DNA from: Proteobacteria bacterium UBA6503
Lineage (GTDB): Bacteria > Pseudomonadota > Alphaproteobacteria > UBA1280 > UBA6503
DNA: 64,000 nt
Direction: 5' to 3'
Assembly (NCBI GenBank): GCA_002436405.1
Contig: DJLZ01000001.1
Coordinates: 782,001 to 846,000, forward strand
This document shows, piece after piece, positions 20,127-51,579 of the stretch. The position numbers were made by a program, and so were the translations under genes. The notes below the pieces were generated by a model. It was given only the letters and a program-made list of their open reading frames with translations. It did no database searches and was not told the DNA's origin. Numbering within the stretch: position 1 is the stretch's first letter; the number at the start of each line of letters is the position of its first letter.

Positions 20127-20994
20127 GTAATTTCTCCGTCCCAGCTGGGGCCTTATGGTAGGCAAAGGCACTGGCCAGTTTGTTATCGGCTTTAAAAATG
20201 TGCTTATAGGCGTATAGGTTTTCTGAGTGGCCAACAATCAAAAGGCTGTCATCGTCCATGGTATCGTAGATATTCCAAAGTACTTGCTCTTTTGACTTAT
20301 CATCAAAGTAAATCAGCACGTTGCGGCAAATCACTACATCAAACTTACCAAGGCGGCGAATCTCAGAAGGTTCTTTTAAGTTTGCAGGCTTAAAGGTGGC
20401 AAACTTTTTGATTTCATCACTGATTTTTGAGGTTTGCTCATCCACTTGCGTAAAGTATTTACTCATCATATCAGCGGGGATGTTACGAATAGCATATTTA
20501 CTATAAACACCGGCTTGTGCATCACGGATAGACTGCTGCGAGATGTCAGTCCCCACAAATTCCCAGTTAATGTCGGTCCAGTTGTTTTTAAGCACCTGCA
20601 AAATGGTGGTGTAAACCTCGTCTCCGGTTGAGCAAGCTGCACTCCAAATACGGATGCGTTTATTCCCTGAAAGGCGCTTGGCGTTTACAAGCGGCGTTAA
20701 AATATCACGCTCAAAGGCGTTCAGCTGCGGCTCATTACGGAAGAAGAAGGTTTCATGGATGGTAATGGCATCTACAAAATGGGGCAGTTCACCGTGGCGC
20801 TGGGGGCCTGAGGTAATGTAGTTGAAATAATCTTGTGCTGAGCTTAACCCTAAAGCTTCACAGCGGCGGCCAACTTTTGAAGCAATAAAGTAGTTTTTAT
20901 TATCTTCAAAGCGAATGCCCGTATGGTCGTAGATAAAATCTACGTACTTTTTAAACAGTTCGGGTTCAACCGAAGGGCGGGCTGTGGCGTCCAT
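20119..20994 (-). CDS. cheR: Chemotaxis protein methyltransferase CheR
   Basis: CheR N-terminal helical domain plus SAM-dependent methyltransferase domain ('DIRIWSAACSTGDEVYT'). Confidence 0.9.
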   Translation of the reverse strand: MDATARPSVEPELFKKYVDFIYDHTGIRFEDNKNYFIASKVGRRCEALGLSSAQDYFNYITSGPQRHGELPHFVDAITIHETFFFRNEPQLNAFERDILTPLVNAKRLSGNKRIRIWSAACSTGDEVYTTILQVLKNNWTDINWEFVGTDISQQSIRDAQAGVYSKYAIRNIPADMMSKYFTQVDEQTSKISDEIKKFATFKPANLKEPSEIRRLGKFDVVICRNVLIYFDDKSKEQVLWNIYDTMDDDSLLIVGHSENLYAYKHIFKADNKLASAFAYHKAPAGTEKLHV

Positions 20995-21003
20995 TATTAT
21001 ATC

Positions 21004-23070
21004 TTAGGCCTCAACGTTTAATTGGTGTTCTGGAGCATCGTCAGTTATTGGGGCCAACATGTCGTGCAGTGGGTCGGTTTCAAAAAAGCTGACTGTTTCA
21101 ATTTGTAGGGTGCCGCGCAAGCCAACGGCTGAAAGGCTGTTTTGAACAAGCTCTTCTAGGCCTTTATGCTCAGCTTCGCTGATACCCTGCGTCATGCGGA
21201 TTTTAATATGCATCACGTCTTTGCCCTGCATTAAGCCATCAAGCTGGATGGGACCAAGCTCACTCATTTTAACATTCAAAACAAAGCGGAGTGAATCACC
21301 ATCGTCTGGGTTTTGCTTTTTGTGCTTACGCCAAAAAAAGCTGCCTTGCTGTAATGTTTGGTTTTGGTCATCAAGGTAGGGGAACATCAGCGCACGCCAA
21401 CCGTCAGGTGCATCTGGCTTTTGATGAAGGTTATTGAGCTGGGCAGCGTCTGACTGCAGCATACCATCAAGGCCAAGGGCACGTAGCATGTTCAGAACGT
21501 CATCACCAAAGAATGAGCGCATGTTTTGCGTTGTAATGCTATGGCTCAGCTGTAAAAGCTTCGGCAATAGTTTTTCATTGGCCTCGGGAAGCACGCTTTT
21601 TAGTTTTTCAGCCCCTTCAGGGTTGCTGTCTTCAAGGTTGCTCATGGCTTGGGCGAGGGTGTCCCATGACAGTGAAAAACGAAGCAGCGCGTTACTGCGG
21701 TCACTGCCCTTAGGCATCACAATATCTAGAATTTCAGCATGGCCATCAGGCATAATATGTACGCTGATATGACTACCCACAGGTAGCATGCGCTGTGCAA
21801 TAACAGGCGTACGTACATCTTTACCAAATTGCAAAATAACTTCACCGCCTGGGCGTTGTTCAACAACGGTACCCGTGGCAATTTGACCCACGCTAAGCTC
21901 AGGTGTTTTGGCAGCAATTGACCCTTGTTGGCTTGACTGTTGTGCCCCTGTTTGCTGGGTTTGGCGGGCAGCAGCATCTTGCTGTGATTGATGCTCAGGG
22001 TTACGGCCTGCAACTGACTGTGGCGCACGAGCGCTTACGGTACTTAGTACCTCAAGCACGCCTGAGTCTGTAAAGCGAATAGCCATTTGTTGTACACCTT
22101 GTGAGTTTGAATTTTGGCCCGAACCTAACGTGCTTTGAAAGCCAAGCTGTTGCAGCGTTTGTTCAGGAATATCAAAGGTTAATAATACCCCATTTTGCAA
22201 CCCGATAGTAACGCTATTTGGTTGGAACTGCTGCACCGTCACAAGCTGTGGGCTTGTGTTACGTAGCAATGCCGTTGGAATAGGGCTTTGCGATTTAAGC
22301 TTTATAGGGGTGGGCAATAGCACGCGCCCTTCGGTGGTAAGTTTACCTGTGCCCTCAATAACCACCTGACGGGGGAATGACCCACGAGTTTCGTTGGTTA
22401 GCTCAGGCGCATCCGAAAGTGTGGCTTGCGGCAGTTGCGGTACGGGCAAGCGCAGCTTATCAATAACGGCTGTTTGGTTTTGGCCAATTTTTAAAACAAC
22501 TTCTGAGTTAACTTCAAACACAGGCGGCAGCAGCAACGTAAGTTGATGCCCGTTGGTAAGGTTCAAGGTTTGGCCACCACTTTGAGGGGGTGTGAGGGTA
22601 CGGCCCATCACGCTCATACCGGGGCTTGGCATAAAGATTGAGTTTTGTGGCCCGCTCATGTTTACACGAGGTGCCGTAAACTGAATGGTTTGTCCTTCTT
22701 TTGCCATAGCGTTTTTCGCAATATCGAGCAGCACTGAGGGCGTGCTTGAAGGGCGGATTTGCGCAGGCTGTTCAGGGGTTTTTGGTAGTAAAACACGCAA
22801 AATCTCTGGTGGTTGGTCGCCTTTCATTTGCAATAAAAGCTGACTGCCCGGAGGAATATTCTCAGGCACGTCAGCGGTAATGATTTGCCCTGATGGTAAC
22901 TGTAGCTGGGCTTGGCCATTGGCTGCTCGTTGTGCCAGAACCTCAACCTTCAATAAGCCTTGGCGGTGCTTAGGCGGGACGTCTTTCGCATTCTGCAATT
23001 GCTCGTTCTGCTTTTCACCACGGTCACGTGGCTCAAGCAAAATCAGCGTGTTCTGTGAGAGCAGTTGCAT
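21004..23070 (-). CDS. Second FliK-family protein: long Q/P/S/T-rich protein with a C-terminal Flg_hook (FliK C-terminal) domain
   Basis: C-terminus 'LRFVLNVKMSELGPIQLDGLMQGKDVMHIKIRMTQGISEAEHKGLEELVQNSLSAVGLRGTLQIETV' follows the FliK C-domain pattern. Compare the canonical fliK at 53651. Confidence 0.6.
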   Translation of the reverse strand: MQLLSQNTLILLEPRDRGEKQNEQLQNAKDVPPKHRQGLLKVEVLAQRAANGQAQLQLPSGQIITADVPENIPPGSQLLLQMKGDQPPEILRVLLPKTPEQPAQIRPSSTPSVLLDIAKNAMAKEGQTIQFTAPRVNMSGPQNSIFMPSPGMSVMGRTLTPPQSGGQTLNLTNGHQLTLLLPPVFEVNSEVVLKIGQNQTAVIDKLRLPVPQLPQATLSDAPELTNETRGSFPRQVVIEGTGKLTTEGRVLLPTPIKLKSQSPIPTALLRNTSPQLVTVQQFQPNSVTIGLQNGVLLTFDIPEQTLQQLGFQSTLGSGQNSNSQGVQQMAIRFTDSGVLEVLSTVSARAPQSVAGRNPEHQSQQDAAARQTQQTGAQQSSQQGSIAAKTPELSVGQIATGTVVEQRPGGEVILQFGKDVRTPVIAQRMLPVGSHISVHIMPDGHAEILDIVMPKGSDRSNALLRFSLSWDTLAQAMSNLEDSNPEGAEKLKSVLPEANEKLLPKLLQLSHSITTQNMRSFFGDDVLNMLRALGLDGMLQSDAAQLNNLHQKPDAPDGWRALMFPYLDDQNQTLQQGSFFWRKHKKQNPDDGDSLRFVLNVKMSELGPIQLDGLMQGKDVMHIKIRMTQGISEAEHKGLEELVQNSLSAVGLRGTLQIETVSFFETDPLHDMLAPITDDAPEHQLNVEA

Positions 23071-28521: not shown

Positions 28522-29292
28522 TTAGTTAAATACGTTTACGCGGCCTGCTGGTGGCAAAATAGCATTCAGCATAACTTCAAGCTGGCGTGGGTTTTCTTGC
28601 TTAGCAACCGATTGTACAGTGGTTGCGTAAATACGGCGTAGCTCAACTTCAGCGCGGCTGTTTTTTTCCATTTTCGAGGCTAGTGGTGTAAACACCATGT
28701 TTGCCAAAATCGCACCGTAAAGGGTGGTCAAAAGGGCAACCGCCATCGCAGGGCCAATAGCTGATGGGTCAGACAGATTCCCCAACATTTGTACCAGACC
28801 AATCAACGTACCAATCAGACCCATAGCAGGGGCAAGCTCAGCACTGCGGCGCAGGATTGAAATTGTGCGTTCGTGGCGTTCCATCATGCTTTCGGTGTCG
28901 TCTTCCATAATGGTGGCAACAGCTTCTGGGTTAACGCCGTCAATGGCCAGCATTAGGCCTTGCTGAACGTAAGTATCGTTCAAGGCGTCAATATCGGCTT
29001 GGATGTTCAAAATACCGTTCACACGGGCTTTTTGTGCAAGCTCAACCATGCTTTTTGCTTCTTCTGAGGCATTAGGTAGTTTGAAAACCAACATACGGGC
29101 CACAATACCTTGGGCGCGCATAATTTCAGGGATTGTAAAGCTTACAGTCGTGATGGCAAATGTACCGCCGATAACAATCAAGATTGATGGCGGGTTAATA
29201 AAGCCAGCAACGTCGCCGCCCAATGCAATTGCAATGGCAACGAAAACAAAGCCAATCAGCAGGCCAAAGATGGTTGCTAGGTCTAAGTTCAA
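28522..29292 (-). CDS. motA: Flagellar stator protein MotA/PomA
   Basis: 256 aa, 4 TM. 'AMGLIGTLIGLVQMLGNL' MotA/TolQ/ExbB signature. Confidence 0.88.
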   Translation of the reverse strand: MNLDLATIFGLLIGFVFVAIAIALGGDVAGFINPPSILIVIGGTFAITTVSFTIPEIMRAQGIVARMLVFKLPNASEEAKSMVELAQKARVNGILNIQADIDALNDTYVQQGLMLAIDGVNPEAVATIMEDDTESMMERHERTISILRRSAELAPAMGLIGTLIGLVQMLGNLSDPSAIGPAMAVALLTTLYGAILANMVFTPLASKMEKNSRAEVELRRIYATTVQSVAKQENPRQLEVMLNAILPPAGRVNVFN

Positions 29293-40411: not shown

Positions 40412-41512
40412 ATGGCTGATGATGTAAAAACACCGACAGAAGCAGAAAACGCCCAAGCTAAGGGTGAAGATGAACTGCTGGATGAGTGGATGAACATGGC
40501 ATCTGGCGAAGGGGACGACGCTGACGCTGCCCCGATGGATGATAAAATCCTCGACCAGAACGAAATTGATTCTCTGCTTGGTGTCGACAACGGTAACGAC
40601 GACGGCCAGACCGGCGGCGTACGTGTTTTGCTGAACAACAGCATTATTAGCTACGAGCGCTTGCCACTTCTTGAAATTGTTTTTGACCGCTTTGAGCGCT
40701 TGATGTCAACCAGCTTGCGTCAGTTCACGGCTGATAACGTAGATATCAGCATTGAGAACATGACCTCAGTTCGCTACGGCGAATACATGGATTCTATCCC
40801 GCTACCTGCTGGTTTGGTGGTTGTGAACGCCCGCGGTTTGGATGACTACATCCTGCTGACCTACGAAAGCCGCCTTATTTACGCAATTGTTGATATTTTG
40901 CTTGGGGGCCGTAAGGCACGCCCGGCACGTATTGAAGGCCGTAACTTCACAACGATTGAGCGTAAGATTGTTGAAAAACTTTCACAGGTTGTACTAGAAG
41001 GCCTTGCTGAAGCCTTTGCACCTGTTGCCCCAATTAACTTCGATTTTGAGCGTATGGAATCAAACCCACGCTTTGCCACGGTAACCCGTGAAGGTAACGC
41101 CTGTATTTTGGTAACTGTGCGTGTAAACCTTGAAGAACGTGATGGTATTATGCAGTTCTGCCTACCATACGCCACGCTTGAGCCAATCCGTGATCAGCTA
41201 TTGCAGCAGTTTATGGGTGAAAAATTTGGCCACGATAACATCTGGGAAAACCACTTGGCGAAAGAACTATACGCCACAAACACCAAAATTAAGGCTGTGC
41301 TTGACGAGCAAACACACATGCTAAGCGAGGTTCTTGAATGGCGCTTGGGCGATACCATTGTGTTTAATGCAAAACAAGGCGCACCGGTACGTATTAAAAT
41401 GGGCCCAGAAACCAAGATGGTTGGCATGATGGGCCGCGCCGATGACCGATTGGCCGTTAAAATTACAAAGAATATCGCTGACGTAAACGACAGCAAAAAC
41501 GAAGGGGACTAA
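40412..41512 (+). CDS. fliM: Flagellar motor switch protein FliM
   Basis: CheY-P-binding N-terminus ('LDQNEIDSLLG'), FliM middle domain, C-terminal SpoA. Confidence 0.93.
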   Translation: MADDVKTPTEAENAQAKGEDELLDEWMNMASGEGDDADAAPMDDKILDQNEIDSLLGVDNGNDDGQTGGVRVLLNNSIISYERLPLLEIVFDRFERLMSTSLRQFTADNVDISIENMTSVRYGEYMDSIPLPAGLVVVNARGLDDYILLTYESRLIYAIVDILLGGRKARPARIEGRNFTTIERKIVEKLSQVVLEGLAEAFAPVAPINFDFERMESNPRFATVTREGNACILVTVRVNLEERDGIMQFCLPYATLEPIRDQLLQQFMGEKFGHDNIWENHLAKELYATNTKIKAVLDEQTHMLSEVLEWRLGDTIVFNAKQGAPVRIKMGPETKMVGMMGRADDRLAVKITKNIADVNDSKNEGD

Positions 41513-41515
41513 TCA

Positions 41516-42199
41516 ATGACAGGATTTATGATTGATCTTGTACTTATGCTAACAATGGCTGGCCTATTGGGCGTGGTGCTTGTTTTGCATTTTAAACTAA
41601 AAGAATTTGGCCGCGATGCCATGCGTGTTCCTGCACTTGCTGATGACCTTACAACAGCCATTACAACCAGCCGCACTGCAATGCAAGAGCTTGCAAAGTC
41701 AGCCCGTACTGATGGTGCACTGCTTGAAGAATACACAAGTAAAGCCGCACGTAATATTCAGGAGCTTACTTTCCTAATCGACCGTGCTGAAAAAGTACTT
41801 GAGCGTTTTGATAACCACATTAGCAACGGTGCAATGCGCTTGAGTGAAGCACAGGTAACGCCTGCACAAGCTGCTCATACTCAAACGACACCTCAGCCTG
41901 AACTTTCAGCCCCAACGGCAACACCAACTTCTGCCCAGCGACCAATGAACCGTCCTGCACAAAATACAAGCGCTTCAAGTCAGGCGGCGATTATGCCTGG
42001 CCGCTATAAGAAAGAGATGGCAACACCACAAAACAGCGAGCCTTCAGCACAAAAACCATTTAAGCCAACAAGCTTTGGTGCCTCTGCTGCGGCCTACGGT
42101 TCAGCAAGTACTGTGATGAACAACACAACTGTTGATGACACACCTGCTGTTGCAAGCGAAGCCGAGCGAGAACTACGCCGTGCGCTTGGTGGCGTATAA
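41516..42199 (+). CDS. Hypothetical flagellar-operon membrane-anchored protein (N-terminal TM, coiled coil, Q/T/P/A-rich tail)
   Basis: Tightly coupled after fliM (3 nt gap). No recognisable domain. Confidence 0.5.
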   Translation: MTGFMIDLVLMLTMAGLLGVVLVLHFKLKEFGRDAMRVPALADDLTTAITTSRTAMQELAKSARTDGALLEEYTSKAARNIQELTFLIDRAEKVLERFDNHISNGAMRLSEAQVTPAQAAHTQTTPQPELSAPTATPTSAQRPMNRPAQNTSASSQAAIMPGRYKKEMATPQNSEPSAQKPFKPTSFGASAAAYGSASTVMNNTTVDDTPAVASEAERELRRALGGV

Positions 42200-42216: not shown

Positions 42217-42819
42217 TTGTCTGTGAAAAAGTTTGGCCTAACCACAATGCTACTGCCTCTGCTATGCGGGGGCTTTGTGTTGCTTTGTGGGGCAAATGCA
42301 TATGCCGCTGAAGATCGTGGTATTAGCCAGCTAGATGCAGCACCACAAGCCCGTGGCGATCTTTTGCCAACCCCTGAAAACGTAAGCCTAGAGAGCAGCC
42401 GTCGCTTATTTTCTGAAGCTGAAATCAAGCTTTTACAAGAACTAGACATCCGCCGTATTGAGCTTGAGCGCCGTGAACAAGCCCTACGTGTGCGTGAAAA
42501 ACTAGCCGACCTTGCCGAAGCTGAGCTTAAAGACCGAGTGGAAAAAATGAACGAGCTGCAAAAACAGCTAACTGTTCTGCTGAAAAATCTTTCAAACAAA
42601 GAAGAAGCTGAGCTTGTTCAACTCGCTAAGATTTACGAAGAAATGCGCCCGAACAATGCTGCTATCGTTTTGAACAAACTTGACGATAACATCGTGTTTG
42701 ATTTGTTTAAGCGCATGAACCGTAAAGACACTGCCAAGATTATGGAGAAAATGGATCCAATCAAGGCACGACGAATTTCGAAGATGCTCGCAGAAAAAAG
42801 TGATCTTCCCCAGTTTTAA
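42217..42819 (+). CDS. motE: MotE-like periplasmic protein with MgtE_N-type helical domain and signal peptide
   Basis: 'LAKIYEEMRPNNAAIVLNKLDDNIVFDLFKRMNRKDTAKIMEKMDPIKARRISKML' matches the MgtE_N / FlbB-MotE pattern. Confidence 0.65.
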   Translation: MSVKKFGLTTMLLPLLCGGFVLLCGANAYAAEDRGISQLDAAPQARGDLLPTPENVSLESSRRLFSEAEIKLLQELDIRRIELERREQALRVREKLADLAEAELKDRVEKMNELQKQLTVLLKNLSNKEEAELVQLAKIYEEMRPNNAAIVLNKLDDNIVFDLFKRMNRKDTAKIMEKMDPIKARRISKMLAEKSDLPQF

Positions 42820-42864: not shown

Positions 42865-43251
42865 ATGGCCGTAAATAAGAACATGCGCATCCTAGTTGTG
42901 GACGACTTTTTGACCATGCGCCGCATTATCATCAACTTGCTACGTCAGCTTGGTTTTAACAATGTTGTTGAAGCTGCAGACGGTAAGCAAGCCCTTGATA
43001 AAGTTCATGAAGAAGAGATTGATCTGATTGTTTCTGACTGGAACATGCCGAACATGACAGGTATTGAGTTTTTGAAGCACGTCCGTGCAGATGAAAAAAC
43101 AAAAGCGATTCCATTCATCATGGTGACAGCCGAAGGTAAAAAAGAAAACGTGATTGCTGCTGTGCACGCAGGTGTGAGTAACTACATCGTGAAGCCATTT
43201 AACGCGGCGACCTTGAAAGAGAAAATGTCGAAAGTAATTGGTGAGTTTTAA
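42865..43251 (+). CDS. cheY: Chemotaxis response regulator CheY
   Basis: 128 aa receiver domain ('ILVVDDFLTMRRI...DLIVSDWNMPNMTGIEFL...MVTAEGKKENV'). Confidence 0.93.
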   Translation: MAVNKNMRILVVDDFLTMRRIIINLLRQLGFNNVVEAADGKQALDKVHEEEIDLIVSDWNMPNMTGIEFLKHVRADEKTKAIPFIMVTAEGKKENVIAAVHAGVSNYIVKPFNAATLKEKMSKVIGEF

Positions 43252-43282: not shown

Positions 43283-44008
43283 ATGAGTGAAAACGGCATG
43301 AAGCTACTACAAGATCAACTTAACGCCCTAGAAGACAACATTAAAGGCGATACCGTACCAGCAGAAGACGTACGTGCATTCGTTGCCTTGGTAAAGCAGT
43401 TCTTTGGTGGCCATTTTGAGCAAACAGCTAAAGATGGCGAAGCCTTTGACCCACGCCTATACGGCGAATTGGGCGAGCTTGCTAAGTTTATTAATGCCGC
43501 ACGCCACGAGTTTGCTGACGTAAGCCCAGGCATGCTGCAAGAAGAGCAGCTTCCTGAAGCTTCAGACCAGTTGGACGAAATTGTAAAAACAACTGAAGCT
43601 GCAACACACAAAATTATGGACTCATGCGAACAGCTACAAGGTGTGAACCAACGTATTCGTGACCGTATGATGACTATTGATCCACCGCTTGACCCTGATG
43701 TTGCTATGAGCATTGAAGATGCCCTCAACGAAGGTGATACTCACGTTACAAACATTTACGAAGCCTGTAACTTCCAAGATATTACTGGTCAGCGTATTCA
43801 GAAGATTATTAAGGTTCTACGTGAGATTGAGCGTCAGGTTTTCCGTATGGTTATTGTATTTGGTCTACGCAACAAGGGTGAGGCTCTTGAAGAAAAAGAC
43901 CGCACGGCACTTGCCGAAACTGAGGCCGCGCTTCTTAATGGCCCGCAAAAGACTGGCGAAGGTCTAGACCAAGACGATGTTGACGATATTCTAGCTAAAT
44001 TGCTGTAA
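43283..44008 (+). CDS. cheZ: CheY-P phosphatase CheZ
   Basis: CheZ catalytic helix motif 'ACNFQDITGQRIQKII'. Follows cheY. Confidence 0.8.
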   Translation: MSENGMKLLQDQLNALEDNIKGDTVPAEDVRAFVALVKQFFGGHFEQTAKDGEAFDPRLYGELGELAKFINAARHEFADVSPGMLQEEQLPEASDQLDEIVKTTEAATHKIMDSCEQLQGVNQRIRDRMMTIDPPLDPDVAMSIEDALNEGDTHVTNIYEACNFQDITGQRIQKIIKVLREIERQVFRMVIVFGLRNKGEALEEKDRTALAETEAALLNGPQKTGEGLDQDDVDDILAKLL

Positions 44009-44010
44009 AG

Positions 44011-45099
44011 ATGACGAGTGGGGTGGCTATGACAAACAGTAATGTACTACGCGTCCTTGTGGTCGATGATTCGGCCTTTATGCGCAGTACGTTAACGCGT
44101 TTTTTCAATAGCGACGAACGTTTTGAAGTTATTGGTAGTGCTGCTAACGGCGACGAAGCAGTTAAAATGGCAGCCGACCTTAAGCCCGATGTTATGACCC
44201 TTGATATTGAGATGCCTGTTAAAAACGGTATCGAGGCGTTGGAAGAAATTATGCAAAAGTCACCAACCCGTGTGGTGATGGTTTCTAGCTTAACAGAGGC
44301 GGGTGCTACAGCGACTATGAAAGCACTAGAACTTGGCGCTGTTGATTTTATTCCAAAAGCAATGGAAGACAGCTCGCGCAACATTTTTAGCCAGTCAAAA
44401 CAGTTGTGCGACAAGGTTTTTGCGGCCGCACAAGCTGAAATTGTTAAGCAGCCAACTCAAAGTGCATCGCAACCATCAGAAAGCAGCGAGCCGCAAAAGC
44501 CACAACCTGGCAGCCATTTGCGTTTCAGACATGCCGAAGCTGTGCTTATTGGTATTAGCACGGGTGGGCCAAAGGCGCTGCAACAAATTATTGCTGATTT
44601 CCCGCGTACGACAAATGTGCCAATTATTATTGTGCAGCATATGCCGCCTAACTTCACAAAAGCGATGGCTGAACGCCTTGACCAAAGCTGCCCCCTAAAG
44701 GTGGTTGAGGGTACAGACGGCCAAAAGCTAGAAGCTAATCATATTTACATTGCGCCCGGCGGCATGCAGTGCCGCGTTAAAAAGGCATCTTCAGGGCTTG
44801 TATTCAGTGTGTCAGAAGATGAGGGTGAATCATTGTACAAACCATCGGTAGAAGTGATGGGAGAGTCACTCTTAGAGGCTGTTGGCGGTAAGGTGCTTGC
44901 CATGATGATGACCGGTATGGGCAATGATGGTGTTAAAGTTTACGAAAAACTGAAGGTCGCAGGTGCATACGTTATTGCGCAAGATGAAGCCACATCAGTT
45001 GTTTACGGGATGCCACGTGCCGTGGTCGAAAAGGGGATTGCCAACGAGGTACTACCGCTTGACCGCTTGGCCCCAACCATTGAACGCTTACTAGGTTAA
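44011..45099 (+). CDS. cheB: Chemotaxis methylesterase/response regulator CheB
   Basis: N-terminal receiver ('VLVVDDSAFMR...DVMTLDIEMP') plus CheB methylesterase domain. Confidence 0.93.
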   Translation: MTSGVAMTNSNVLRVLVVDDSAFMRSTLTRFFNSDERFEVIGSAANGDEAVKMAADLKPDVMTLDIEMPVKNGIEALEEIMQKSPTRVVMVSSLTEAGATATMKALELGAVDFIPKAMEDSSRNIFSQSKQLCDKVFAAAQAEIVKQPTQSASQPSESSEPQKPQPGSHLRFRHAEAVLIGISTGGPKALQQIIADFPRTTNVPIIIVQHMPPNFTKAMAERLDQSCPLKVVEGTDGQKLEANHIYIAPGGMQCRVKKASSGLVFSVSEDEGESLYKPSVEVMGESLLEAVGGKVLAMMMTGMGNDGVKVYEKLKVAGAYVIAQDEATSVVYGMPRAVVEKGIANEVLPLDRLAPTIERLLG

Positions 45100-45110
45100 A
45101 GGGGACACCC

Positions 45111-47324
45111 ATGGAAATTGATCAGGAAATTTTAGATGAGTTTCATACAGAGGCTGAGGAAAGCCTTGATGCCCTTGAAGCTGACCTGATTACCCTTGAA
45201 GGCGTTGCCGAAGCGGGTGACTCTGACCCTGACCTTATTGACCGTCTATTCCGTGTATTGCACACCCTAAAAGGTGGTGCGGGCTTTCTAGGCCTTGAGA
45301 AAATGAACAAGCTTGCCCACGCAGGTGAAAACTTGCTGGATGAAGTGCGTGCGGGCAATGTGCCTATTACTACCGAGGTAATGGATGCCTTGCTTGAAAC
45401 TAATGACACGCTAAAAGACCTTTTGGATTGTTCAAAAACAGGTGAAAGCCCTGATAATATTGACTTTAAGCCCCTTGCAGATCGTCTTGATAAGCTTTCA
45501 GCCCCTGGTGGCGTAGCTGCACCTGAGGCACCAAAAGCTGAGGAGCCACAAACTGAAGAAACTGCAGCCCCAGCAGTTGAAACACCTGAGCCTACAGGCA
45601 TTGAAATTAACGAAGACCTTCTTGCTGAGATTCAAGCTGATGACCGCCTATCTGGCCCTGCTGGTGATGATGACGCTGTGCCAACACCAGAAGCCCCAGC
45701 TATTGAAATTAATGAAGACCTTCTTGCTGAGATTCAGGCTGATGACCGCCTAACAGGCCCCGCTGGTGAAGACGATGCTGTGCCAACACCAGAAGCCCCA
45801 GCTATTGAGATTAACGAAGAGCTTCTTGCTGAAATTCAAGCCGATGACCGCCTGACGGGCCCTGCAAGCAGCGATGATGACATTGAAACTGTTGAAGCTG
45901 AACCTGTTACCCCTAAACAGGACGCTAAAACAGAAGAGCCAACAAAAAAAGCAGAACAACCTAAGGCCGAAGCCTTTGACCGTCGTGGCGCTGACCGCCG
46001 TGACCGTGTGGGCGACCGCCGCAAAAAACCAGGCCGCCGCGACCATGACCCTAAAGAGGTAACAATCCGTGTGGATACTGCACGTCTAGATGCAGTAATG
46101 AACCTAGTGGGTGAGCTTGTGCTTGCACGTAACACACTTGTGCGCCAGATGGAGCGTGAGGATACCATTGAGCGCCTACAGGGCAGCGAATATCAAGGGA
46201 TTATTGAGTCAACGCTAGAGTCGCTAACACGTGTTTCAAAAGACTTGCAAATGTCAGTACTGCGCACACGTATGCAACCGATTAAGCGTGTATTTGATAA
46301 AATTCCACGTCAGGTACGTGAGCTTAAAAACAAACTTGGTAAAGAAATTAACCTTGTGATTGAAGGCGAGGGCACCGAGGTTGACCGTAGCTTGGTTGAA
46401 GAGCTTGCCGATCCAATGGTCCACCTTATCCGTAATGCTCTAGACCATGGCCTTGAAGGCCCCGAAGAACGTACCGAAGTTGGTAAAAAGTCAGAAGGCA
46501 CCTTGGCTATCCGTGCGTTTTACGAAGGGAACAACGTTGTGATTCAGGTGCAGGATGATGGCCGTGGGATTGACCCTATGCGCATCCGTGCCAAAGCCGT
46601 TGAAAAAGGCCTACTGACTGAAGAGGCTGCACATGCCCTACCAGATAGCGAAGCTATTAAGCTGATTATGGCAGCGGGTTTCTCGACAGCTGAAACCATT
46701 AGTGATGTTTCAGGCCGTGGTGTGGGTATGGACGTTGTGAACGACAAAATTAACAAGATTAAAGGCACCATTGAGCTTGAGTCTCAGTTTGGTGCGGGCA
46801 CAACAGTTTCAATTTACCTGCCCCTTACACTTGCTATTGTGCAGGCCCTTATTGTTGAGGCGAATGACGAAGGCTTTGCTGTACCAATTGGCACAGTGTC
46901 TGAGGTTATTCAGTTCCGCCCGCTTATGTGCCACAAGGTAAACAACGAAGACGCCATTGAACTGCGTGAAGAAATTGTGCCAATCAAATACCTTTCTGAG
47001 CTTACATCAAAAGGTAAGAAAGACTATACCGAAGGCTTGAAGGATAAAAACGAGCAAAACGGTTACGTGATGATTGTGCGTGACGGCAGCCTTACAGTTG
47101 GTCTTGTGATTGATGAGCTTCTGGGCCAAGAAGAAGCCGTTGTAAAATCAATTACCAGCGCGTTTGACTATAACCCTGCAATCTCAGGTGCAACAATCTC
47201 CGGCGATGGTAAAGTGCATATGATTTTGGATGTGCCATACTTCATGCGTGATATTGTGCAAAAGCAAAAGTCACTCACCGCCGAAGCCCGTAAAGCTGCC
47301 ATGAAACTTGTGGCATCAGAATAG
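45111..47324 (+). CDS. cheA: Chemotaxis histidine kinase CheA with a 3 x 34 aa tandem-repeat linker in place of a canonical P2 domain
   Basis: P1 HPt ('RVLHTLKGGAGFLG'), P3, P4 ('DHGLEGPEER', 'DDGRGID', 'GRGVGMD') and P5 CheW-like domains. Confidence 0.93.
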   Translation: MEIDQEILDEFHTEAEESLDALEADLITLEGVAEAGDSDPDLIDRLFRVLHTLKGGAGFLGLEKMNKLAHAGENLLDEVRAGNVPITTEVMDALLETNDTLKDLLDCSKTGESPDNIDFKPLADRLDKLSAPGGVAAPEAPKAEEPQTEETAAPAVETPEPTGIEINEDLLAEIQADDRLSGPAGDDDAVPTPEAPAIEINEDLLAEIQADDRLTGPAGEDDAVPTPEAPAIEINEELLAEIQADDRLTGPASSDDDIETVEAEPVTPKQDAKTEEPTKKAEQPKAEAFDRRGADRRDRVGDRRKKPGRRDHDPKEVTIRVDTARLDAVMNLVGELVLARNTLVRQMEREDTIERLQGSEYQGIIESTLESLTRVSKDLQMSVLRTRMQPIKRVFDKIPRQVRELKNKLGKEINLVIEGEGTEVDRSLVEELADPMVHLIRNALDHGLEGPEERTEVGKKSEGTLAIRAFYEGNNVVIQVQDDGRGIDPMRIRAKAVEKGLLTEEAAHALPDSEAIKLIMAAGFSTAETISDVSGRGVGMDVVNDKINKIKGTIELESQFGAGTTVSIYLPLTLAIVQALIVEANDEGFAVPIGTVSEVIQFRPLMCHKVNNEDAIELREEIVPIKYLSELTSKGKKDYTEGLKDKNEQNGYVMIVRDGSLTVGLVIDELLGQEEAVVKSITSAFDYNPAISGATISGDGKVHMILDVPYFMRDIVQKQKSLTAEARKAAMKLVASE
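45600..45905 (+). repeat. Three tandem 102-nt (34-aa) in-frame repeats inside cheA
   Basis: Units begin at 45600, 45702 and 45804 ('IEINEDLLAEIQADDRLSGPAGDDDAVPTPEAPA'). The third unit is degenerate. Confidence 0.9.
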
Positions 47325-47332
47325 GCTTAACC

Positions 47333-48019
47333 ATGGCAAAGCAACTTAAAGATAAAGCAAAAGGTGGGGACAGTAGCGGTACTATTGTACTGATGTTGGG
47401 TCTGTACCTTATTTTGCTGGCTTTCTTTATTTTGCTGAATGCAATTTCAGAAGTGGCGATTGATAAGTTTGAGCGTGCGAGCCAAAGTATTGCCTCAGGG
47501 TTTGGTTTTCGTGCCGCACAAACTGTTATTAAAGACGACCCCGACGAAGCCCTTGTGAACGAGTTTTACGAGAAAATTGCCGATGACATTCAAGAGGTAT
47601 TCTCGGCGTATATTTCAAACAGTCAGTTTGAAGTTGAAAGCACCCGCGACACCATGATTGTGCGCCTTCGTGCCCCCGCCTTTTTTGATGAAGGCGAGTG
47701 GAAGATTATCTCAAGCCAAGCCTCATTCTTTACCGACCTTGCTGATTTGATGAATGAAAAACGCCCCGGTGCGCGCATTATTTTGGATATTCGTGTGCCT
47801 AGCAGCATTGAAGAGGCACCTGACCCGGTTGAACTTAATGGCCTGCGCGCAAGCCAATTTGCCCGTGCCCTTGATGAGCGTGGCGTAAACTCAAACTTTA
47901 TTACCTCGGCCGTAACAGAACAAGAAGGTGACCGTATTGTGTTGCTCTTCACCACACAAATTATTGACCGTGTTGCCGTTGTGGCTCAAGCCCGAATTGA
48001 CAGTAAGGGAGGGAAGTAA
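47333..48019 (+). CDS. MotB-like membrane protein with a degenerate OmpA-like C-terminal region
   Basis: N-terminal TM similar to the MotB plug/TM region. C-terminus ('GLRASQFARALDERGVNSNFITSAVTEQE') is a weak OmpA-like pattern. Immediately upstream of motB. Confidence 0.55.
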   Translation: MAKQLKDKAKGGDSSGTIVLMLGLYLILLAFFILLNAISEVAIDKFERASQSIASGFGFRAAQTVIKDDPDEALVNEFYEKIADDIQEVFSAYISNSQFEVESTRDTMIVRLRAPAFFDEGEWKIISSQASFFTDLADLMNEKRPGARIILDIRVPSSIEEAPDPVELNGLRASQFARALDERGVNSNFITSAVTEQEGDRIVLLFTTQIIDRVAVVAQARIDSKGGK

Positions 48020-48021
48020 CT

Positions 48022-48732
48022 ATGCCTCTCCGTAAAAAAAGTGGCCCACCGTCAGATGCTTGGCTTGTGACTTTTGCCGACCTTGTGAGCTTGCTTATTA
48101 CATTTTTCGTGTTGTTATTCTCAATGAAAAACATCAACACCCAACGCTGGCAGGATATTCGTGGTGCGCTTTCGGGTGCTCTTGCCTTTGAAGAAATTAA
48201 CCAGCAAAACGTTGATACCGACAACATTGAAACCATTAACATTACCCAAGCAGATGACCTAACTTACCTCAAGGCTATTTTGGGGCAGCGCTTTAAAAGC
48301 GATGATGTTTTAAAAGAAGCCACCATGGTGATCCGTGACCGTGGTGATGAGCTTCGCATTACGGTGCCTAGCCGTTTGCTGTTCAAAACAGGCTCAGCAA
48401 GCCTAATGCCGCAAGGGGATGATGCCATTGGCCGCCTTGGCGATATGCTACGTAATATTGATAACAGTATTATTATTGCAGGCCACACTGACCCTGTGCC
48501 GATTCAAGGTGGGGTATACGAAAGCAACTGGGAACTTTCAATGTTGCGTGCCGTAGGTGTGCTTAAAAAGTTACGGGCCACAGGTGTTGTTTCACCTATG
48601 CAGGCGCTAGGTTATGCAGATAGCCGGTTTGATATGATACAATCAGACTTACCGGTTACAATGCGTTACCTCAAAGCGCGACGTGTTGAAATTATTATCG
48701 GTAAGGCAACAACCAACCAAAGGTTACCGTAA
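48022..48732 (+). CDS. motB: Flagellar stator protein MotB
   Basis: TM with the conserved Asp ('WLVTFADLVSLLITFFVLLF') plus OmpA-like peptidoglycan-binding domain ('IIIAGHTDPVPIQGGVYESNWELSMLRAVGV'). Confidence 0.88.
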   Translation: MPLRKKSGPPSDAWLVTFADLVSLLITFFVLLFSMKNINTQRWQDIRGALSGALAFEEINQQNVDTDNIETINITQADDLTYLKAILGQRFKSDDVLKEATMVIRDRGDELRITVPSRLLFKTGSASLMPQGDDAIGRLGDMLRNIDNSIIIAGHTDPVPIQGGVYESNWELSMLRAVGVLKKLRATGVVSPMQALGYADSRFDMIQSDLPVTMRYLKARRVEIIIGKATTNQRLP

Positions 48733-51579
48733 GTGCTACCGAAGCTTTTGCTTTTATCAACAATCATTCTGGGGCTTTCGCCCCTTGCCGCGTCTGTGGC
48801 GGATGCTGCTGATATTCAGTATGTTGATGCACCAGCCCCGCACTTTACTGTACCTGCCGATACACCGCTTGCCGTATTTCAGCGCCTTGAAGATATTTGG
48901 ATTGTAACGACCGAAGATAGCCTTAATCTTCCGTCACTCCCTGAAAGCCTAGCTGTTATTGAAACTGAAAACCTGTACGTGCCTGATGGTGCGGGTGTGC
49001 GGGTGTCACTTTCAGTGCTTAAAGGCCTACGTGTTGAGCGTGATAGTGAAAACTGGCGTATTTACATTAACCAACTAGGCGCCCCGCAAACACTTGCGCT
49101 ACCGCTTGATATTTCGGGCGATATTGTGACGCTTAATAGCGGTGCTTACAGCCCACGCCGTGCCACAAGTTTTGATACCCGTGAAACGTATACCGCTGTG
49201 CCATCACTGGCAGCTCGTGGTTTTTCATCACCTGAAAATATTGGTATTTTGCGCCGCCTTGAAACTGCAGCTGGTGCTGCATTTGTAAGTAGCAATGGTG
49301 CGCCACTTGGCATGACCACCGAAGACGGCAAAACAACTTTTAGAACCCTAAATAACGCTATTTCAGCGGCCGTAGCCCGCCGTGAAGGGCCTATTAACCT
49401 TTCAGTGGTTGATAGCCTGCTGCAAGCCGCACGCGATGCTGACGGTAACATTATTCGTACTGTGCCGGCAGGCCAAACCGCCTACCATGGTGGTATGAAC
49501 ATCCCATCGATTGACCCTGAAAATGAATCAACCGTTGATGATGCCGTAACACAGATGAACCGTGCCCTTGATCAAGTAGGGCGTTTGTCATACCCACTTC
49601 CAACCGACCCTCGTGAGCAAGAGCAAGTGCCTGACCTACCATCAATACAAACACCTGAGCTTGATGACGCCATTATTGCAGCGCTTGCCGCCCGTGATGA
49701 AGCCACCGTGCCAATGACGAAACAAGAGGTTGAGCAAGCCCTCCCAGAAAACCGCATTCTGCCTGATTTTGGTGACCGTACACGCCGTGAGCTTGATGCC
49801 CTTGAGCGTCGCCTTGGCCAGCGCTGGTACTTTACCGAGAAAAACACCGATAAAATTAGCGCCGCTAACCGCTTTGCAGGTCTGAAAATCTTTATGCAGC
49901 AATACCCTGAAGCCCTTGGTATTTTGCAAACCGTTATTCATAACAACGAGAACACTGACCCAGCACTTGTTGAAGATACAAAGCTACTTGAAGCCATTAG
50001 CCTAGCTTTGATGGAACGCTACCCAGAAGCCCAAGAGAAGATGGAAAAAATCACCACACCATCAGTCGATAAAGCCATTTGGTCTGGCTACATCCAAGAA
50101 GGTTTGGGCGAGCACAAAAAAGCAGCTGATATGCTAGAAGATAGCATTGAAAAGTCAGCTTCGTACCCGCCACTAATTACGCAAAAGGTACGCTACGCCT
50201 ACGCAAAAGCACTGTTTGAAGAAGGCCGCATGAACGAAGCCTTGAACCAAATTGACCGCCTTGCTCTACTAGGTGGTCGTGGCCGCGTGCTGCCAAAAGC
50301 ACAGCTTTTGATGGGCCGTATTTACAAAGAACAAGGCCAAAAAGACCTTGCAGAACAAGTATTTATTACGCTGGCCTCTAACAGCGATATGGAAGTTTCA
50401 AGCCATGCGCTATACCACTTCCTTGACCTGTTGGTTGAGCGTGGTGACCTAACCCCTGAAGCCGCTGCCATTCGTTTTGAGAACCTACGCTTCTTGTGGC
50501 GTGGGGACGAGGTTGAAGAAAACACCTTGTTTAAATTGGCGAACCTTTACATCCAAAGCAAGCAGTACAAAAACGCCCTTGAACGCTTGAAGTACCTAAC
50601 GGTAAACTTCCCTGAAAGTGAGTATGTGCCGCAAGCAGCTGCGATGATGACTAAGATTTTTGGTGACCTGTTTATGGACCGCCGTACGGATGCAGAGCTT
50701 GACCCTATCGGTATGCTTGGCCTGTACTACGACTTCCGTGAGTTGACACCAGCTAACGAAGAAGGCGACCGTGTTGTGATGAACGTGGCCAACCGTTTGG
50801 CGACCCTTGGCCTTTACGACCGTGCCGTTGAAACGCTAGAGCGTCAACTTAAGTTCCGTGCAAATAACCCTGCAGCTGTAGGCTTGCTAGGGCTAGAGCT
50901 TGCAAAGCTACACTTCCAAAACTACTCAGTGGGTGAGGGGCTAGAGGCACTTAACCGTACAGCTTCAAAAGACCTAGCACCGTCACTACAAAATGACCGT
51001 AAGATTATGCGTGCCAAACTATTGGGCCTTGCCATGAAGTATGAAGGTGCCCTTGAAGTGGCAAAAGAGGCAACAGGCACTGAAGCTCAAGACCTTCAAG
51101 CCGAGTTTGCTTGGGAACTTGGCGAATTTAAAGCCGTTGTTGACGCGATGAAGCCAATGTTTGATGCAGCTGGTGGTAGCGAGTGGACAGGCACTGACGT
51201 AACACGTTTCTTACGCCTAGCAACAGCACAGGCGGCGCTAGGCCAAGCTGATGACTTGCAGGACCTTGCCATCCGTTACGAACAAGGTATTGCCCTACAC
51301 GAGCTTACTGAACAAGTAGACTTTTTGATTCAATCTGCCCGCTCAGAATCGCCAGCAGAATCACGTGTTGAAGATGAACTACGTACGAACCCGAACGAAG
51401 TACCCGCAGGTTCGTCAGTATGGCTACGTGGTGAAAAGGGCCTTGAAGAGCAAAACGACTTTAACCGTGACTACCGCCGTACTCGCCAACGCTGGCGCCT
51501 TGAAAATGAAGAGGCTGACCGAAGTGAAATGCGTGGGTTGCAGCAGGAAATTCAGAACCGTCAAAACCGCTTCCGCTAA
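48733..51579 (+). CDS. Large (948 aa) secreted TPR-like repeat protein of unknown function, translationally coupled to motB
   Basis: GTG start immediately after the motB stop. Signal peptide 'MLPKLLLLSTIILGLSPLAASVADA'. Helical-repeat-rich middle. Charged C-terminus. Confidence 0.6.
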   Translation: MLPKLLLLSTIILGLSPLAASVADAADIQYVDAPAPHFTVPADTPLAVFQRLEDIWIVTTEDSLNLPSLPESLAVIETENLYVPDGAGVRVSLSVLKGLRVERDSENWRIYINQLGAPQTLALPLDISGDIVTLNSGAYSPRRATSFDTRETYTAVPSLAARGFSSPENIGILRRLETAAGAAFVSSNGAPLGMTTEDGKTTFRTLNNAISAAVARREGPINLSVVDSLLQAARDADGNIIRTVPAGQTAYHGGMNIPSIDPENESTVDDAVTQMNRALDQVGRLSYPLPTDPREQEQVPDLPSIQTPELDDAIIAALAARDEATVPMTKQEVEQALPENRILPDFGDRTRRELDALERRLGQRWYFTEKNTDKISAANRFAGLKIFMQQYPEALGILQTVIHNNENTDPALVEDTKLLEAISLALMERYPEAQEKMEKITTPSVDKAIWSGYIQEGLGEHKKAADMLEDSIEKSASYPPLITQKVRYAYAKALFEEGRMNEALNQIDRLALLGGRGRVLPKAQLLMGRIYKEQGQKDLAEQVFITLASNSDMEVSSHALYHFLDLLVERGDLTPEAAAIRFENLRFLWRGDEVEENTLFKLANLYIQSKQYKNALERLKYLTVNFPESEYVPQAAAMMTKIFGDLFMDRRTDAELDPIGMLGLYYDFRELTPANEEGDRVVMNVANRLATLGLYDRAVETLERQLKFRANNPAAVGLLGLELAKLHFQNYSVGEGLEALNRTASKDLAPSLQNDRKIMRAKLLGLAMKYEGALEVAKEATGTEAQDLQAEFAWELGEFKAVVDAMKPMFDAAGGSEWTGTDVTRFLRLATAQAALGQADDLQDLAIRYEQGIALHELTEQVDFLIQSARSESPAESRVEDELRTNPNEVPAGSSVWLRGEKGLEEQNDFNRDYRRTRQRWRLENEEADRSEMRGLQQEIQNRQNRFR

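What the first reader, a model, noticed from the sequence alone, without database searches (positions are those of the whole stretch)
45540..46060. CheA lacks a recognisable P2 domain; three acidic 34-aa tandem repeats lie between P1 and P3
Between the HPt domain and the dimerisation domain, the sequence is three in-frame 102-nt repeats ('IEINE[DE]LLAEIQADDRL[ST]GPAG-DDAVPTPEAPA'). An A/E/K/P-rich spacer and an Arg/Asp-rich segment ('DRRGADRRDRVGDRRKKPGRRDHD') follow. Near-identical nucleotide repeats imply recent expansion. The units may act as multivalent docking sites for CheY or CheB, or as a tunable linker.
Basis: seen in the sequence. Interest (0 to 1): 0.55.

Follow-up and report, generated by a model that had tools for sequence, protein, structure and literature searches.

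The report
Repeated docking helices in P2-less CheA
A chemotaxis kinase (CheA) from an uncultured marine bacterium lacks the usual CheY-binding P2 domain and instead has three copies of a short, conserved acidic helix in a disordered tether; this motif is shared by a whole clade of relatives in 1-6 copies and is most likely a set of protein-docking sites, though the partner is not identified.

Summary
CheA (45111-47324, 737 aa) has P1, P3, P4 and P5 but no P2, by Pfam, PDB sequence search and two AlphaFold2 models. Three in-frame 102-nt units lie at 45600, 45702 and 45804, followed by an A/E/K/P spacer and an Arg-rich box.

"Near-identical, recent expansion" is only partly right. Units 1 and 2 differ at 8 of 102 nt. 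Unit 3 shares only about the first 63 nt. Within the 20-aa core, changes between units are mostly synonymous, which indicates purifying selection on the peptide.

The core [VI]-N-x-[DE]-L-L-A-E-[VI]-x-x-D-x-x-L occurs in 1-6 copies (mode 3) in essentially all of the 120 closest CheA homologues (48-97% identity). A profile search of 1.84 billion proteins found it almost only in this clade. AlphaFold2 predicts each core as an isolated 9-residue helix (block-mean pLDDT about 67-82) in an otherwise disordered linker, the pattern expected of a binding motif.

The closest known feature is the EFExLLD/LID repeat array of gammaproteobacterial F6 CheA, which binds ParP. The profiles do not cross-match, and no parC/parP lies in the window or in 8 related loci.

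My best reading is multivalent docking sites. The partner is unresolved: CheY/CheB about 0.35, a CheW-like scaffold about 0.3. I rate it a new variant of a known kind, of moderate interest.

The parts
45111..47324 (+). cheA coding sequence (737 aa + stop); identical to P0123 from a Tara Oceans metagenome; a >90%-identical cluster member (MBA44798.1) is labelled 'Magnetococcales bacterium' (MAG)
45111..45500 (+). P1 / Hpt domain (aa 1-130), phospho-accepting His in HTLKGG
   Evidence: Pfam Hpt 6-101; AlphaFold2 helices 5-130, 10-residue block-mean pLDDT 80-97
45501..45599 (+). A/E/P/T-rich disordered leader of the linker (aa 131-163, net charge -6)
45600..45701 (+). repeat unit 1 (aa 164-197); core IEINEDLLAEIQADDRLSGP, predicted helix 168-176
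45702..45803 (+). repeat unit 2 (aa 198-231); core IEINEDLLAEIQADDRLTGP, predicted helix 202-210
45804..45905 (+). repeat unit 3 (aa 232-265); only the core IEINEELLAEIQADDRLTGPA (about 45804-45866) is repeated; predicted helix 236-244
45906..45971 (+). A/E/K/P-rich spacer (aa 266-287, net charge 0), disordered
45972..46055 (+). clade-specific Arg-rich box AFDRRGADRRDRVGDRRKKPGRRDHDPK (aa 288-315, net +6); consensus ERR-x-DRR-x-DRRKxPxRR immediately before P3
   Evidence: R303, R304, R309, R310 are >=90% conserved; the RR..RR..RR box is in 72/96 clade CheAs vs 1/73 other CheAs
46062..46265 (+). P3 dimerisation domain (aa 318-385)
46413..46829 (+). P4 HATPase_c kinase domain (aa 435-573)
46842..47249 (+). 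P5 CheW-like domain (aa 578-713)
42865..43251 (+). cheY (128 aa), candidate partner of the repeats
43283..44008 (+). cheZ (241 aa); the C-terminal peptide ...DQDDVDDILAKLL shares [DE]D[IL]LA[KE][LI] with the CheA unit
44011..45099 (+). cheB (362 aa; REC + methylesterase), second candidate partner
11745..12284 (-). cheW (179 aa), the only separately encoded CheW-like-domain protein in the window (the other CheW-like domain is CheA P5); candidate partner under the LID-like reading

Best explanation
The three units are copies of a conserved short linear motif of about 20 residues. Each is an N-capped acidic amphipathic helix (N-E-D-L-L-A-E-I-Q-A) followed by a D-D-R-L-x-G turn. The copies are strung on the intrinsically disordered P1-P3 tether of a CheA that has no P2 domain. 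Each copy folds on binding and docks a partner protein, so a CheA dimer would offer six low-affinity sites close to the phosphorylated P1 domain.

The partner I consider most likely is the receiver domain of the phosphoacceptors CheY and/or CheB. On this reading the peptide array replaces P2 by raising local substrate concentration around P1.

Shown: P2 is absent; the motif is conserved under purifying selection; copy number varies between 1 and 6; the helix propensity is intrinsic to the motif; the motif is restricted to one CheA clade.

Inferred: that the motif binds a protein at all (about 0.75-0.8), and that the protein is CheY/CheB (about 0.35).
For: No P2:
- Pfam finds none at E<=1.
- The full-length E. 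coli CheA sequence in the PDB aligns in two stretches, the best to 309-712 (the P3-P5 region), and separate CheA P1 entries align to residues 7-140; no PDB chain aligned to the linker.
- AlphaFold2 gives no strands in residues 131-322.

Sequence-specific constraint:
- The core of units 2 and 3 differs at 8 synonymous and 1 non-synonymous codon. The adjacent spacer differs at 4 synonymous and 6 non-synonymous.
- Across 112 multi-unit homologues the median within-protein identity is 83% for cores and 42% for spacers.
- In the 60-unit alignment, L9 and D16 are invariant and E12 and L19 are >=90% conserved. N is present in 261 of 302 instances.

Conservation and copy number:
- 120 of 121 clade CheAs carry 1-6 units, mode 3.
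- Units are orthologous by position in P0003/4/5/7.

Binding-motif signature:
- Helices 168-176, 202-210 and 236-244 have 10-residue block-mean pLDDT of about 67-82, flanked by segments below 50.
- The same helices appear when the linker is modelled alone, so they do not depend on other CheA domains.

Pointers to CheY/CheB:
- The P2 role is vacant.
- The motif is an acidic amphipathic helix like the known CheY-binding helices. It shares E/D-D-I/L-L-A-K/E-L/I with this genome's own CheZ C-terminal peptide.
- Two units also follow an Hpt domain in an unrelated multi-Hpt kinase fragment, P0145.
- No parC/parP lies in the window or in 8 clade loci.
Against: There is no direct test of binding.

The unit HMM does not score the FliM N-terminal or CheZ C-terminal CheY-binding peptides above noise. 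The 7-residue resemblance to CheZ is within what short acidic helices give by chance: 6 other [DE][DE][ILVM][LIM]xx[LIVM] matches occur in 18,279 aa of window ORFs.

Within the clade, CheY's alpha4-beta5-alpha5 region, FliM_N and CheZ_C look almost invariant by eye across the 6-8 loci. The CheA unit varies more (INEDLLAEI, FNLMDEIM, ITLDDVMNDP). This fits a weaker interaction or a faster-evolving partner.

More than half of all CheAs lack P2 and are thought to work without a docking site (PMC10542144).

The only experimentally grounded precedent for repeats in this position, LID, binds ParP rather than CheY.
Confidence: 0.35

Rival explanations
1. LID-like array anchor. The helices bind a CheW-like domain (a ParP-type protein encoded elsewhere, or CheW itself). 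This holds CheA in the receptor array or tethers the array to the pole, as the LID region of Vibrio/Pseudomonas F6 CheA does with ParP.
For: Gammaproteobacterial F6 CheAs fetched here (Pseudomonas, Marinobacter, Marinomonas, Methylomonas, Thioalkalivibrio and others; 32 loci) also lack P2. They carry 1-4 tandem copies of DEITDDEFExLLDxLHGKG at the same place, with similar spacing and a similar Gly-terminated acidic amphipathic character.

That region is the LID shown to bind ParP in vivo. AF3 maps the ParP contacts onto the repeats (bioRxiv 10.1101/2025.10.27.684771; PMC5706961).

hhalign aligns E-D-L-L-A-E-I with E-x-L-L-D-x-L at P=0.024. Both gene clusters contain cheY-cheZ and cheA/cheB followed by motB-like genes.
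Against: The two unit profiles do not recognise each other: the best cross score is 4.1 bits, and the profile search of 1.84 billion proteins returned no gamma CheA.

parC-parP-cheW follow cheA-cheB-motCD in Pseudomonas. No ParC or ParP homologue was found by tblastn or Pfam in the 64-kb window or in 8 clade loci. The window's cheW neighbours are ATP synthase and fliI genes.

The published repeats are said to occur only where ParC/ParP exist.
Confidence: 0.3
2. CheZ tether. The helices recruit the phosphatase CheZ to the kinase, doing the job that the truncated P1 of CheA-short does in E. coli.
For: cheZ is adjacent to cheA in every clade locus examined. From general knowledge, co-localising CheZ with CheA is a recurrent design, and E. 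coli achieves it through CheA-short. There is no evidence for a CheA-short form here.
Against: There is no sequence or structural pointer to CheZ. The motif resembles CheZ's own C-terminal peptide, which suggests it competes with CheZ for a shared partner rather than binding CheZ.
Confidence: 0.1
3. No external partner. The acidic block (net -29 over 102 aa) and the Arg box (+6) make a block polyampholyte. It tunes tether length and stiffness, folds back on itself, or promotes electrostatic self-association of CheA linkers in the array.
For: Strong charge segregation. The Arg box is clade-specific and conserved: 72/96 clade CheAs vs 1/73 other CheAs. Copy number and spacing are variable, at 22-77 aa between units.
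Against: Charge alone does not explain the invariant hydrophobic positions (L-L, V/I, L) and the N-cap held under purifying selection. By eye, some motif-bearing CheAs have no Arg box (for example P0067 and P0141), so the two elements are separable.
Confidence: 0.15
4. Neutral, recent repeat expansion in a tolerant linker, with no function.
For: Units 1 and 2 are 92% identical at the nucleotide level, spacer included. 33 of 112 homologues have a unit pair whose spacers are near-identical.
Against: The motif is conserved across about 120 homologues down to about 48% identity. Substitutions in the core are mostly synonymous. Units are orthologous by position in the sister clade.
Confidence: 0.03

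Closest known systems
LID (localization and inheritance domain) / EFExLLD repeats of F6-class CheA in Vibrio and Pseudomonas, which bind the CheW-like AIF domain of ParP
   Same: Both are tandem copies (1-4 in gamma, 1-6 here) of a roughly 19-20-aa acidic amphipathic motif with an L-L core that ends in Gly. Both are spaced about 30-40 aa apart in the disordered P1-P3 linker of a CheA with no P2 domain. Both sit in a cluster with cheY-cheZ and cheB.
   Different: The sequence motif differs ([VI]NxDLLAE[VI]xxDxxL vs DEITDDEFExLLDxLHGKG). The profiles do not cross-hit and hhalign gives only P=0.024. No parC/parP lies next to cheA in this clade. This clade also has a conserved Arg-rich box before P3 that gamma CheAs lack.
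P2 / CheY-binding domain of E. coli and Thermotoga CheA (Pfam PF07194, PF09078)
   Same: Same position between P1 and P3. Possibly the same job: docking CheY/CheB next to P1.
   Different: P2 is a folded alpha/beta domain. Here there is no profile match and no predicted fold, only three isolated helices in a disordered chain.
CheY~P-binding peptides: FliM N-terminus (LSQxEIDxLL) and CheZ C-terminus (..DDLLxSLGF)
   Same: All are short acidic amphipathic helices on disordered tethers. The unit shares [DE]D[IL]LA[KE][LI] with this genome's CheZ C-terminus, DDILAKL.
   Different: The units are internal and repeated rather than terminal and single. They lack the Q-x-x-I-D signature that FliM_N (ILDQNEIDSLLG) and CheZ_C (LDQDDVDDIL) share in this genome. 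The unit HMM does not score either peptide.
P2-less CheA kinases in general (>50% of CheAs; Berry et al., PMC10542144)
   Same: The architecture is Hpt, then an unstructured region, then dimerisation, kinase and CheW-like domains.
   Different: That survey describes the linker only as unstructured and does not mention repeats or motifs. Here the linker holds two conserved linear elements.

Membership tests
CheA histidine kinase (core architecture) | Hpt (P1), H-kinase_dim (P3), HATPase_c (P4) and CheW-like (P5) domains in that order | tested here: met
   Pfam E-values are 5.6e-16, 3.8e-14, 6.9e-17 and 1.6e-21. PDB CheA chains match residues 7-140 and 309-712.
CheA P2 / CheY-binding domain | Profile match to Pfam P2 (PF07194) or CheY-binding (PF09078) between P1 and P3 | tested here: not met
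   No hit at E<=1. All 120 closest homologues also lack it in the precomputed Pfam annotation.
CheA P2 / CheY-binding domain | Compact alpha/beta fold (beta-sheet plus two helices) in the linker | tested here: not met
   AlphaFold2 with 85- and 21-sequence alignments gives no strands in 131-322. Most of 136-319 has pLDDT <50. The linker-only model has pTM 0.17.
CheA P2 / CheY-binding domain | Binds CheY/CheB and accelerates phosphotransfer | not testable with these tools
   Needs multimer modelling or biochemistry.
F6 CheA LID / EFExLLD repeats | Tandem short motifs in the P1-P3 linker of a P2-less CheA | tested here: met
   The gamma counterparts were seen directly.
F6 CheA LID / EFExLLD repeats | Core motif EFExLLD (DEITDDEFExLLDxLHGKG) | tested here: not met
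   The gamma-unit HMM scores at most 4.1 bits on 121 clade CheAs, and the top-ranked hits of the clade-unit HMM among the fetched loci were all clade CheAs. hhalign gives P=0.024, probability 2%.
F6 CheA LID / EFExLLD repeats | parC and parP encoded with the che cluster | tested here: not met
   Present in Pseudomonas L040. Absent by Pfam and tblastn from the 64-kb window and from clade loci L001, L004, L005 and L086-L090. The rest of the genome could not be examined.
F6 CheA LID / EFExLLD repeats | Binds the CheW-like AIF domain of ParP | not testable with these tools
   No multimer prediction available.
CheY~P-binding peptides (FliM_N / CheZ_C) | Consensus [LI]-x-Q-x-[ED]-I-D-x-[LI]-L at a protein terminus | tested here: not met
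   FliM_N (ILDQNEIDSLLG) and CheZ_C (LDQDDVDDILAKLL) of the window carry it. The CheA units do not, and the unit HMM does not hit either peptide.

The most novel reading that the evidence does not exclude
The repeats are a peptide-based replacement for the P2 domain. This would be a previously unrecognised class of CheY/CheB docking element, evolved in a P2-less CheA lineage, with capacity tuned by copy number (1-6). It may be distantly related to the gammaproteobacterial LID repeats. If so, those repeats could also dock receiver domains, and ParP binding could be a later addition. The adjacent conserved Arg box would be a second, still unexplained functional element of the same tether.
Probability: 0.3. 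Interest if true: 0.65.

Novelty: new variant of a known kind. Interest (0 to 1): 0.45.

Why it matters
More than half of all CheA kinases lack P2, and their P1-P3 linkers are usually written off as unstructured (PMC10542144). This case shows a linker that carries two conserved linear elements under selection. One of them is a copy-number-variable helix array, paralleling the ParP-binding repeats recently noted in Pseudomonas and Vibrio.

If the helices dock CheY/CheB, that would explain how some P2-less kinases keep phosphotransfer fast. If they dock a CheW-like scaffold, LID-type array anchoring would extend beyond gammaproteobacteria with ParC/ParP. Either outcome can be tested with one synthetic peptide and four purified proteins.

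Tried and rejected
- Homologue search with two copies of the P. putida repeat (41 aa) to fetch gamma CheAs: only 3 candidates and nothing usable. The gamma sequences came from the genome scan instead.
- Homologue search with the linker alone (159 aa), to ask whether the motif ever co-occurs with P2 or REC domains: 8000 candidates, none significant, probably because of composition bias.
It returned only distant CheAs (31-46% identity), so it did not give named close relatives. It was still useful for the gamma F6 loci.
- The unit profile against PDB sequences matched only a de novo designed protein at E=0.15. I rejected this as chance.
- The FliM N-terminal extension motif EELLAEW-x-NMA looks like the CheA core (EDLLAEIQ). 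However, the CheA-unit position that aligns with its Trp is always V/I/L, and the unit HMM does not score it. I treat it as a separate motif.
- I considered a BldD-like RxD-X8-RxxD c-di-GMP site in the Arg box. The spacing does not fit, so I dropped it.
- One look-up (P0026) failed because of a queue.
Full report
**What is there**

The finding lies inside a 737-aa CheA gene (45111..47324, + strand). Pfam recognises Hpt (6-101), the dimerisation domain (318-385), HATPase_c (435-573) and a CheW-like domain (578-713). No P2 or CheY-binding model matches even at E<=1.

Tandem Repeats Finder reports a 102-nt period at 45600..45865 (2.6 copies, 89% matches, score 434). In frame, this gives three 34-aa units at aa 164-197, 198-231 and 232-265.
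- Units 1 and 2 differ at 8 of 102 nt, 7 of them at third codon positions.
- Unit 3 keeps only the first 20-21 residues (IEINEELLAEIQADDRLTGPA). Its tail is unrelated.

After the units come an A/E/K/P spacer (aa 266-287, net charge 0) and an Arg-rich segment (aa 288-315, net +6). The three units carry net charges of -9, -9 and -11.

The repeat is not chance. A unit HMM gives 31-33 bits for the three copies and at most 2.4 bits elsewhere in the six-frame translation of the window.

It is not an assembly artefact. The identical protein (P0123) is on record from 8 contigs (NCBI, ENA, Tara, MetaClust). Three of the other four full-length members of its 90% cluster match all three units exactly; P0124 matches the strict pattern at two but has the same length. 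One cluster member (MBA44798.1) is labelled 'Magnetococcales bacterium' (MAG).

**No hidden P2**

- The full-length E. coli CheA in the PDB aligns in two stretches, the best to residues 309-712, and separate P1 entries align to residues 7-140; no PDB chain aligned to the linker.
- AlphaFold2 on the full-length protein with an 85-sequence alignment (mean pLDDT 75.9) models P1 and P3-P5 well. Most of 136-319 is below pLDDT 50. The exceptions are three 9-residue helices at 168-176, 202-210 and 236-244, one per unit (block-mean pLDDT about 67-82). No beta strand is predicted in the linker.
- Modelling the linker alone (aa 131-322, 21-sequence alignment) gives pTM 0.17 and the same three helices with block-mean pLDDT about 78-82.

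So the helices are an intrinsic property of the motif and do not come from packing against another CheA domain.

**The motif is old and under selection**

The 120 best homologues (48-97% identity) all lack P2 in their precomputed Pfam annotation. Almost all carry the same element in the same place.

A unit HMM finds 1-6 copies in 120 of 121 proteins. The distribution is 8, 30, 59, 20, 2 and 1 proteins with one to six copies. The one exception (P0089) has a recognisable variant, ITLDDVMNDPALxPxKDKG.

The consensus is x-[VI]-N-x-[DE]-L-L-A-E-[VI]-x-x-D-x-x-L-x-G.
- L9 and D16 are invariant, and E12 and L19 are >=90% conserved, in a 60-unit alignment.
- N occurs in 261 of 302 instances.
- A shortened variant (K-P-F-N-L-M-D-E-I-M-N-D-P-I-L-D-P-S-R-D) coexists with the standard form in one protein (P0113). 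This ties the variants together.

Selection acts on the peptide, not the DNA.
- In the window, the 20-codon cores of units 2 and 3 differ at 8 synonymous and 1 non-synonymous codon. The next 12 codons differ at 4 synonymous and 6 non-synonymous. Three relatives show the same pattern.
- Across 112 multi-unit proteins, median within-protein identity is 83% for cores and 42% for spacers.
- 33 proteins have a near-identical pair of spacers (recent duplication or conversion). 31 have wholly diverged spacers.

In the sister subclade (P0003, P0004, P0005, P0007) unit 1 matches unit 1, unit 2 matches unit 2 and unit 3 matches unit 3 across species. A three-unit array therefore predates those species. 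In the window's lineage all three units resemble the sister clade's unit 2 and each other (19/20), which indicates homogenisation or re-duplication there.

So 'recent expansion' holds only in a limited, lineage-specific sense. The element itself is an old, conserved functional feature whose copy number varies.

**How specific is it**

A profile of the unit was searched against 1.84 billion representative proteins. It returned 13 hits at E<=0.001. Nearly all are CheAs or CheA fragments of this clade; P0146 is a 67-aa fragment I judged spurious.

The other exception is P0145, a fragment of a multi-Hpt kinase. In it, two units (IPINLDLLAQVMNDPTL, VQINMELLAMVMNDTTL) follow an Hpt domain.

A second clade-specific element is the Arg box just before P3.
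- Its consensus is ERR-x-DRR-x-DRRKxPxRR.
- R303, R304, R309 and R310 are >=90% conserved.
- It occurs in 72 of 96 clade CheAs against 1 of 73 other CheAs. The median is 8 Arg against 1 in the 40 residues before P3.
- Some motif-bearing CheAs lack it (P0067, P0141), so the two elements are separable.

**Context**

The gene sits in a large flagellar cluster: fliD-fliS ... fliL-fliM-DUF6468-(FlbB/MgtE_N-like)-cheY-cheZ-cheB-cheA-(MotB-plug protein)-(MotB/OmpA protein)-(948-aa TPR protein)-fliP. cheW (11745..12284) and cheR (20119..20994) lie elsewhere in the window.

In six of the eight related loci the wider flagellar context is also conserved; L086 and L090 lack the upstream fliL-fliM genes and L005 and L090 lack the downstream motB-like and TPR genes, but cheY-cheZ-cheB-cheA is kept in all (with one gene inserted before cheA in L090). 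No ParA-like or ParP-like gene is present in the window or in those loci, by Pfam or by tblastn with Pseudomonas ParC/ParP.

**Comparison with what is known**

1. Lack of P2 is ordinary. More than half of CheAs lack it, and the linker is described as unstructured. That survey mentions no repeats or motifs (PMC10542144).

2. The closest described feature is the LID of F6 CheA in Vibrio.
- LID is a region found only in CheAs with a ParC/ParP system, and it binds the CheW-like domain of ParP (PMC5706961).
- A recent preprint notes that LID overlaps three 19-residue repeats, DEITDAEFESLLDQLHGKG, in P. putida CheA. AF3 often maps ParP contacts onto them (10.1101/2025.10.27.684771).
- I saw these repeats directly in 32 gammaproteobacterial loci, at 1-4 copies and again with no P2.
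- In Pseudomonas the cluster reads cheY-cheZ-cheA-cheB-motC-motD-parC-parP-cheW.
- The architecture is strikingly parallel, but the sequences are not demonstrably homologous. The HMMs do not cross-hit (<=4.1 bits). hhalign aligns EDLLAEI with ExLLDxL at P=0.024 only.

3. Canonical CheY~P-binding peptides are present in this genome: FliM ILDQNEIDSLLG and CheZ LDQDDVDDILAKLL.
- They share a signature that the CheA unit lacks.
- The unit shares only a 7-residue [DE]D[IL]LA[KE][LI] stretch with CheZ_C.
- The unit HMM does not detect this resemblance, and it is within chance for acidic helices.

**Mechanism**

The combination of features is the standard signature of a fold-upon-binding docking motif presented multivalently:
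- a disordered tether;
- short helices that AlphaFold2 predicts with good confidence in isolation;
- invariant hydrophobic and N-cap positions;
- free-evolving spacers;
- variable copy number.

I put about 0.75-0.8 on that general statement. The partner is not determined by anything I could run.

For CheY/CheB (about 0.35):
- the P2 role is vacant;
- the helix chemistry fits;
- the motif sits next to Hpt domains, including in P0145;
- no parC/parP is nearby.

For a CheW-like or ParP-type partner (about 0.30):
- it is the only experimentally supported precedent;
- the architecture is parallel.

Against CheY: by eye across the 6-8 loci, CheY's alpha4-beta5-alpha5 region, FliM_N and CheZ_C look almost invariant in the clade, while the CheA unit varies more.

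Smaller weights go to a CheZ tether (about 0.10), a purely electrostatic or entropic role with the Arg box (about 0.15), and neutral expansion (about 0.03).

**Verdict**

However, the repeat is not a recent expansion, and CheY is not the only credible partner.

This is a new variant of a known kind, namely linear-motif arrays in the linker of P2-less CheA, with the LID repeats as the known example. It is confined to a clade known only from metagenomes, whose members carry labels such as Magnetococcales, Alphaproteobacteria, Proteobacteria and Pseudomonadota. Interest is moderate.

Noticed in passing
window 40412..41512 (FliM), about aa 17-32 = 40460..40507; also L004 5102.., L005 5341.., L087 2109.., L088 3221.., L089 3257..: FliM in this clade has an N-terminal extension of about 40 aa ahead of the canonical CheY-binding motif (ILDQNEIDSLLG). 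The extension carries a conserved [ST]E[ED]ELL[AD]EW-x-NMA motif in 6 of 6 loci. It resembles the CheA unit core (EDLLAEIQ vs EELLAEWQ), but the CheA-unit position that aligns with its Trp is always V/I/L. Its function is unknown.
   Followed up: partly
window 45972..46055 (CheA aa 288-315): A conserved Arg-rich box (ERR..DRR..DRRKxPxRR) lies directly before P3. It is present in 72/96 clade CheAs and 1/73 other CheAs. It contains a 21-nt internal repeat (45977..46021) and is predicted to be disordered. No known motif was matched.
   Followed up: partly
protein P0145 (363-aa fragment found by the profile search): A multi-Hpt (ChpA-like) kinase fragment carries two copies of the same motif (IPINLDLLAQVMNDPTL, VQINMELLAMVMNDTTL) between an Hpt domain and what looks like the start of the next one. 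This is the only architecture outside the CheA clade in which the motif was seen.
   Followed up: no
window 47333..48019, 48022..48732, 48733..51579: Directly downstream of cheA, and conserved in most clade loci, are three genes: a 228-aa protein with a MotB-plug match but no OmpA-domain match, a 236-aa MotB/OmpA protein, and a 948-aa TPR protein that appears to have a signal peptide. motA (28522..29292) lies far away, so this is an unusual stator-like gene set.
   Followed up: no
window 21004..23070 (-): A 688-aa ORF immediately next to cheR (20119..20994) has no Pfam or NCBIfam match at all.
   Followed up: partly
window 41516..42199 and 42217..42819: A DUF6468 protein and a 200-aa protein with a weak FlbB / MgtE_N-like match sit between fliM and cheY in the window. 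Genes of similar size occupy the same position in the six other clade loci that include fliM, although the Pfam matches recur in only some of them.
   Followed up: no
loci L009-L061 (gammaproteobacterial F6 cheA loci, e.g. L040 8942..11164): Every Pseudomonas, Marinobacter, Marinomonas and Methylomonas CheA inspected has 1-4 DEITDDEFExLLDxLHGKG units (the one tested with Pfam, L040, has no P2 match). In Cobetia L032 the linker looks like a folded P2-type segment and, by eye, has no such units.
   Followed up: partly
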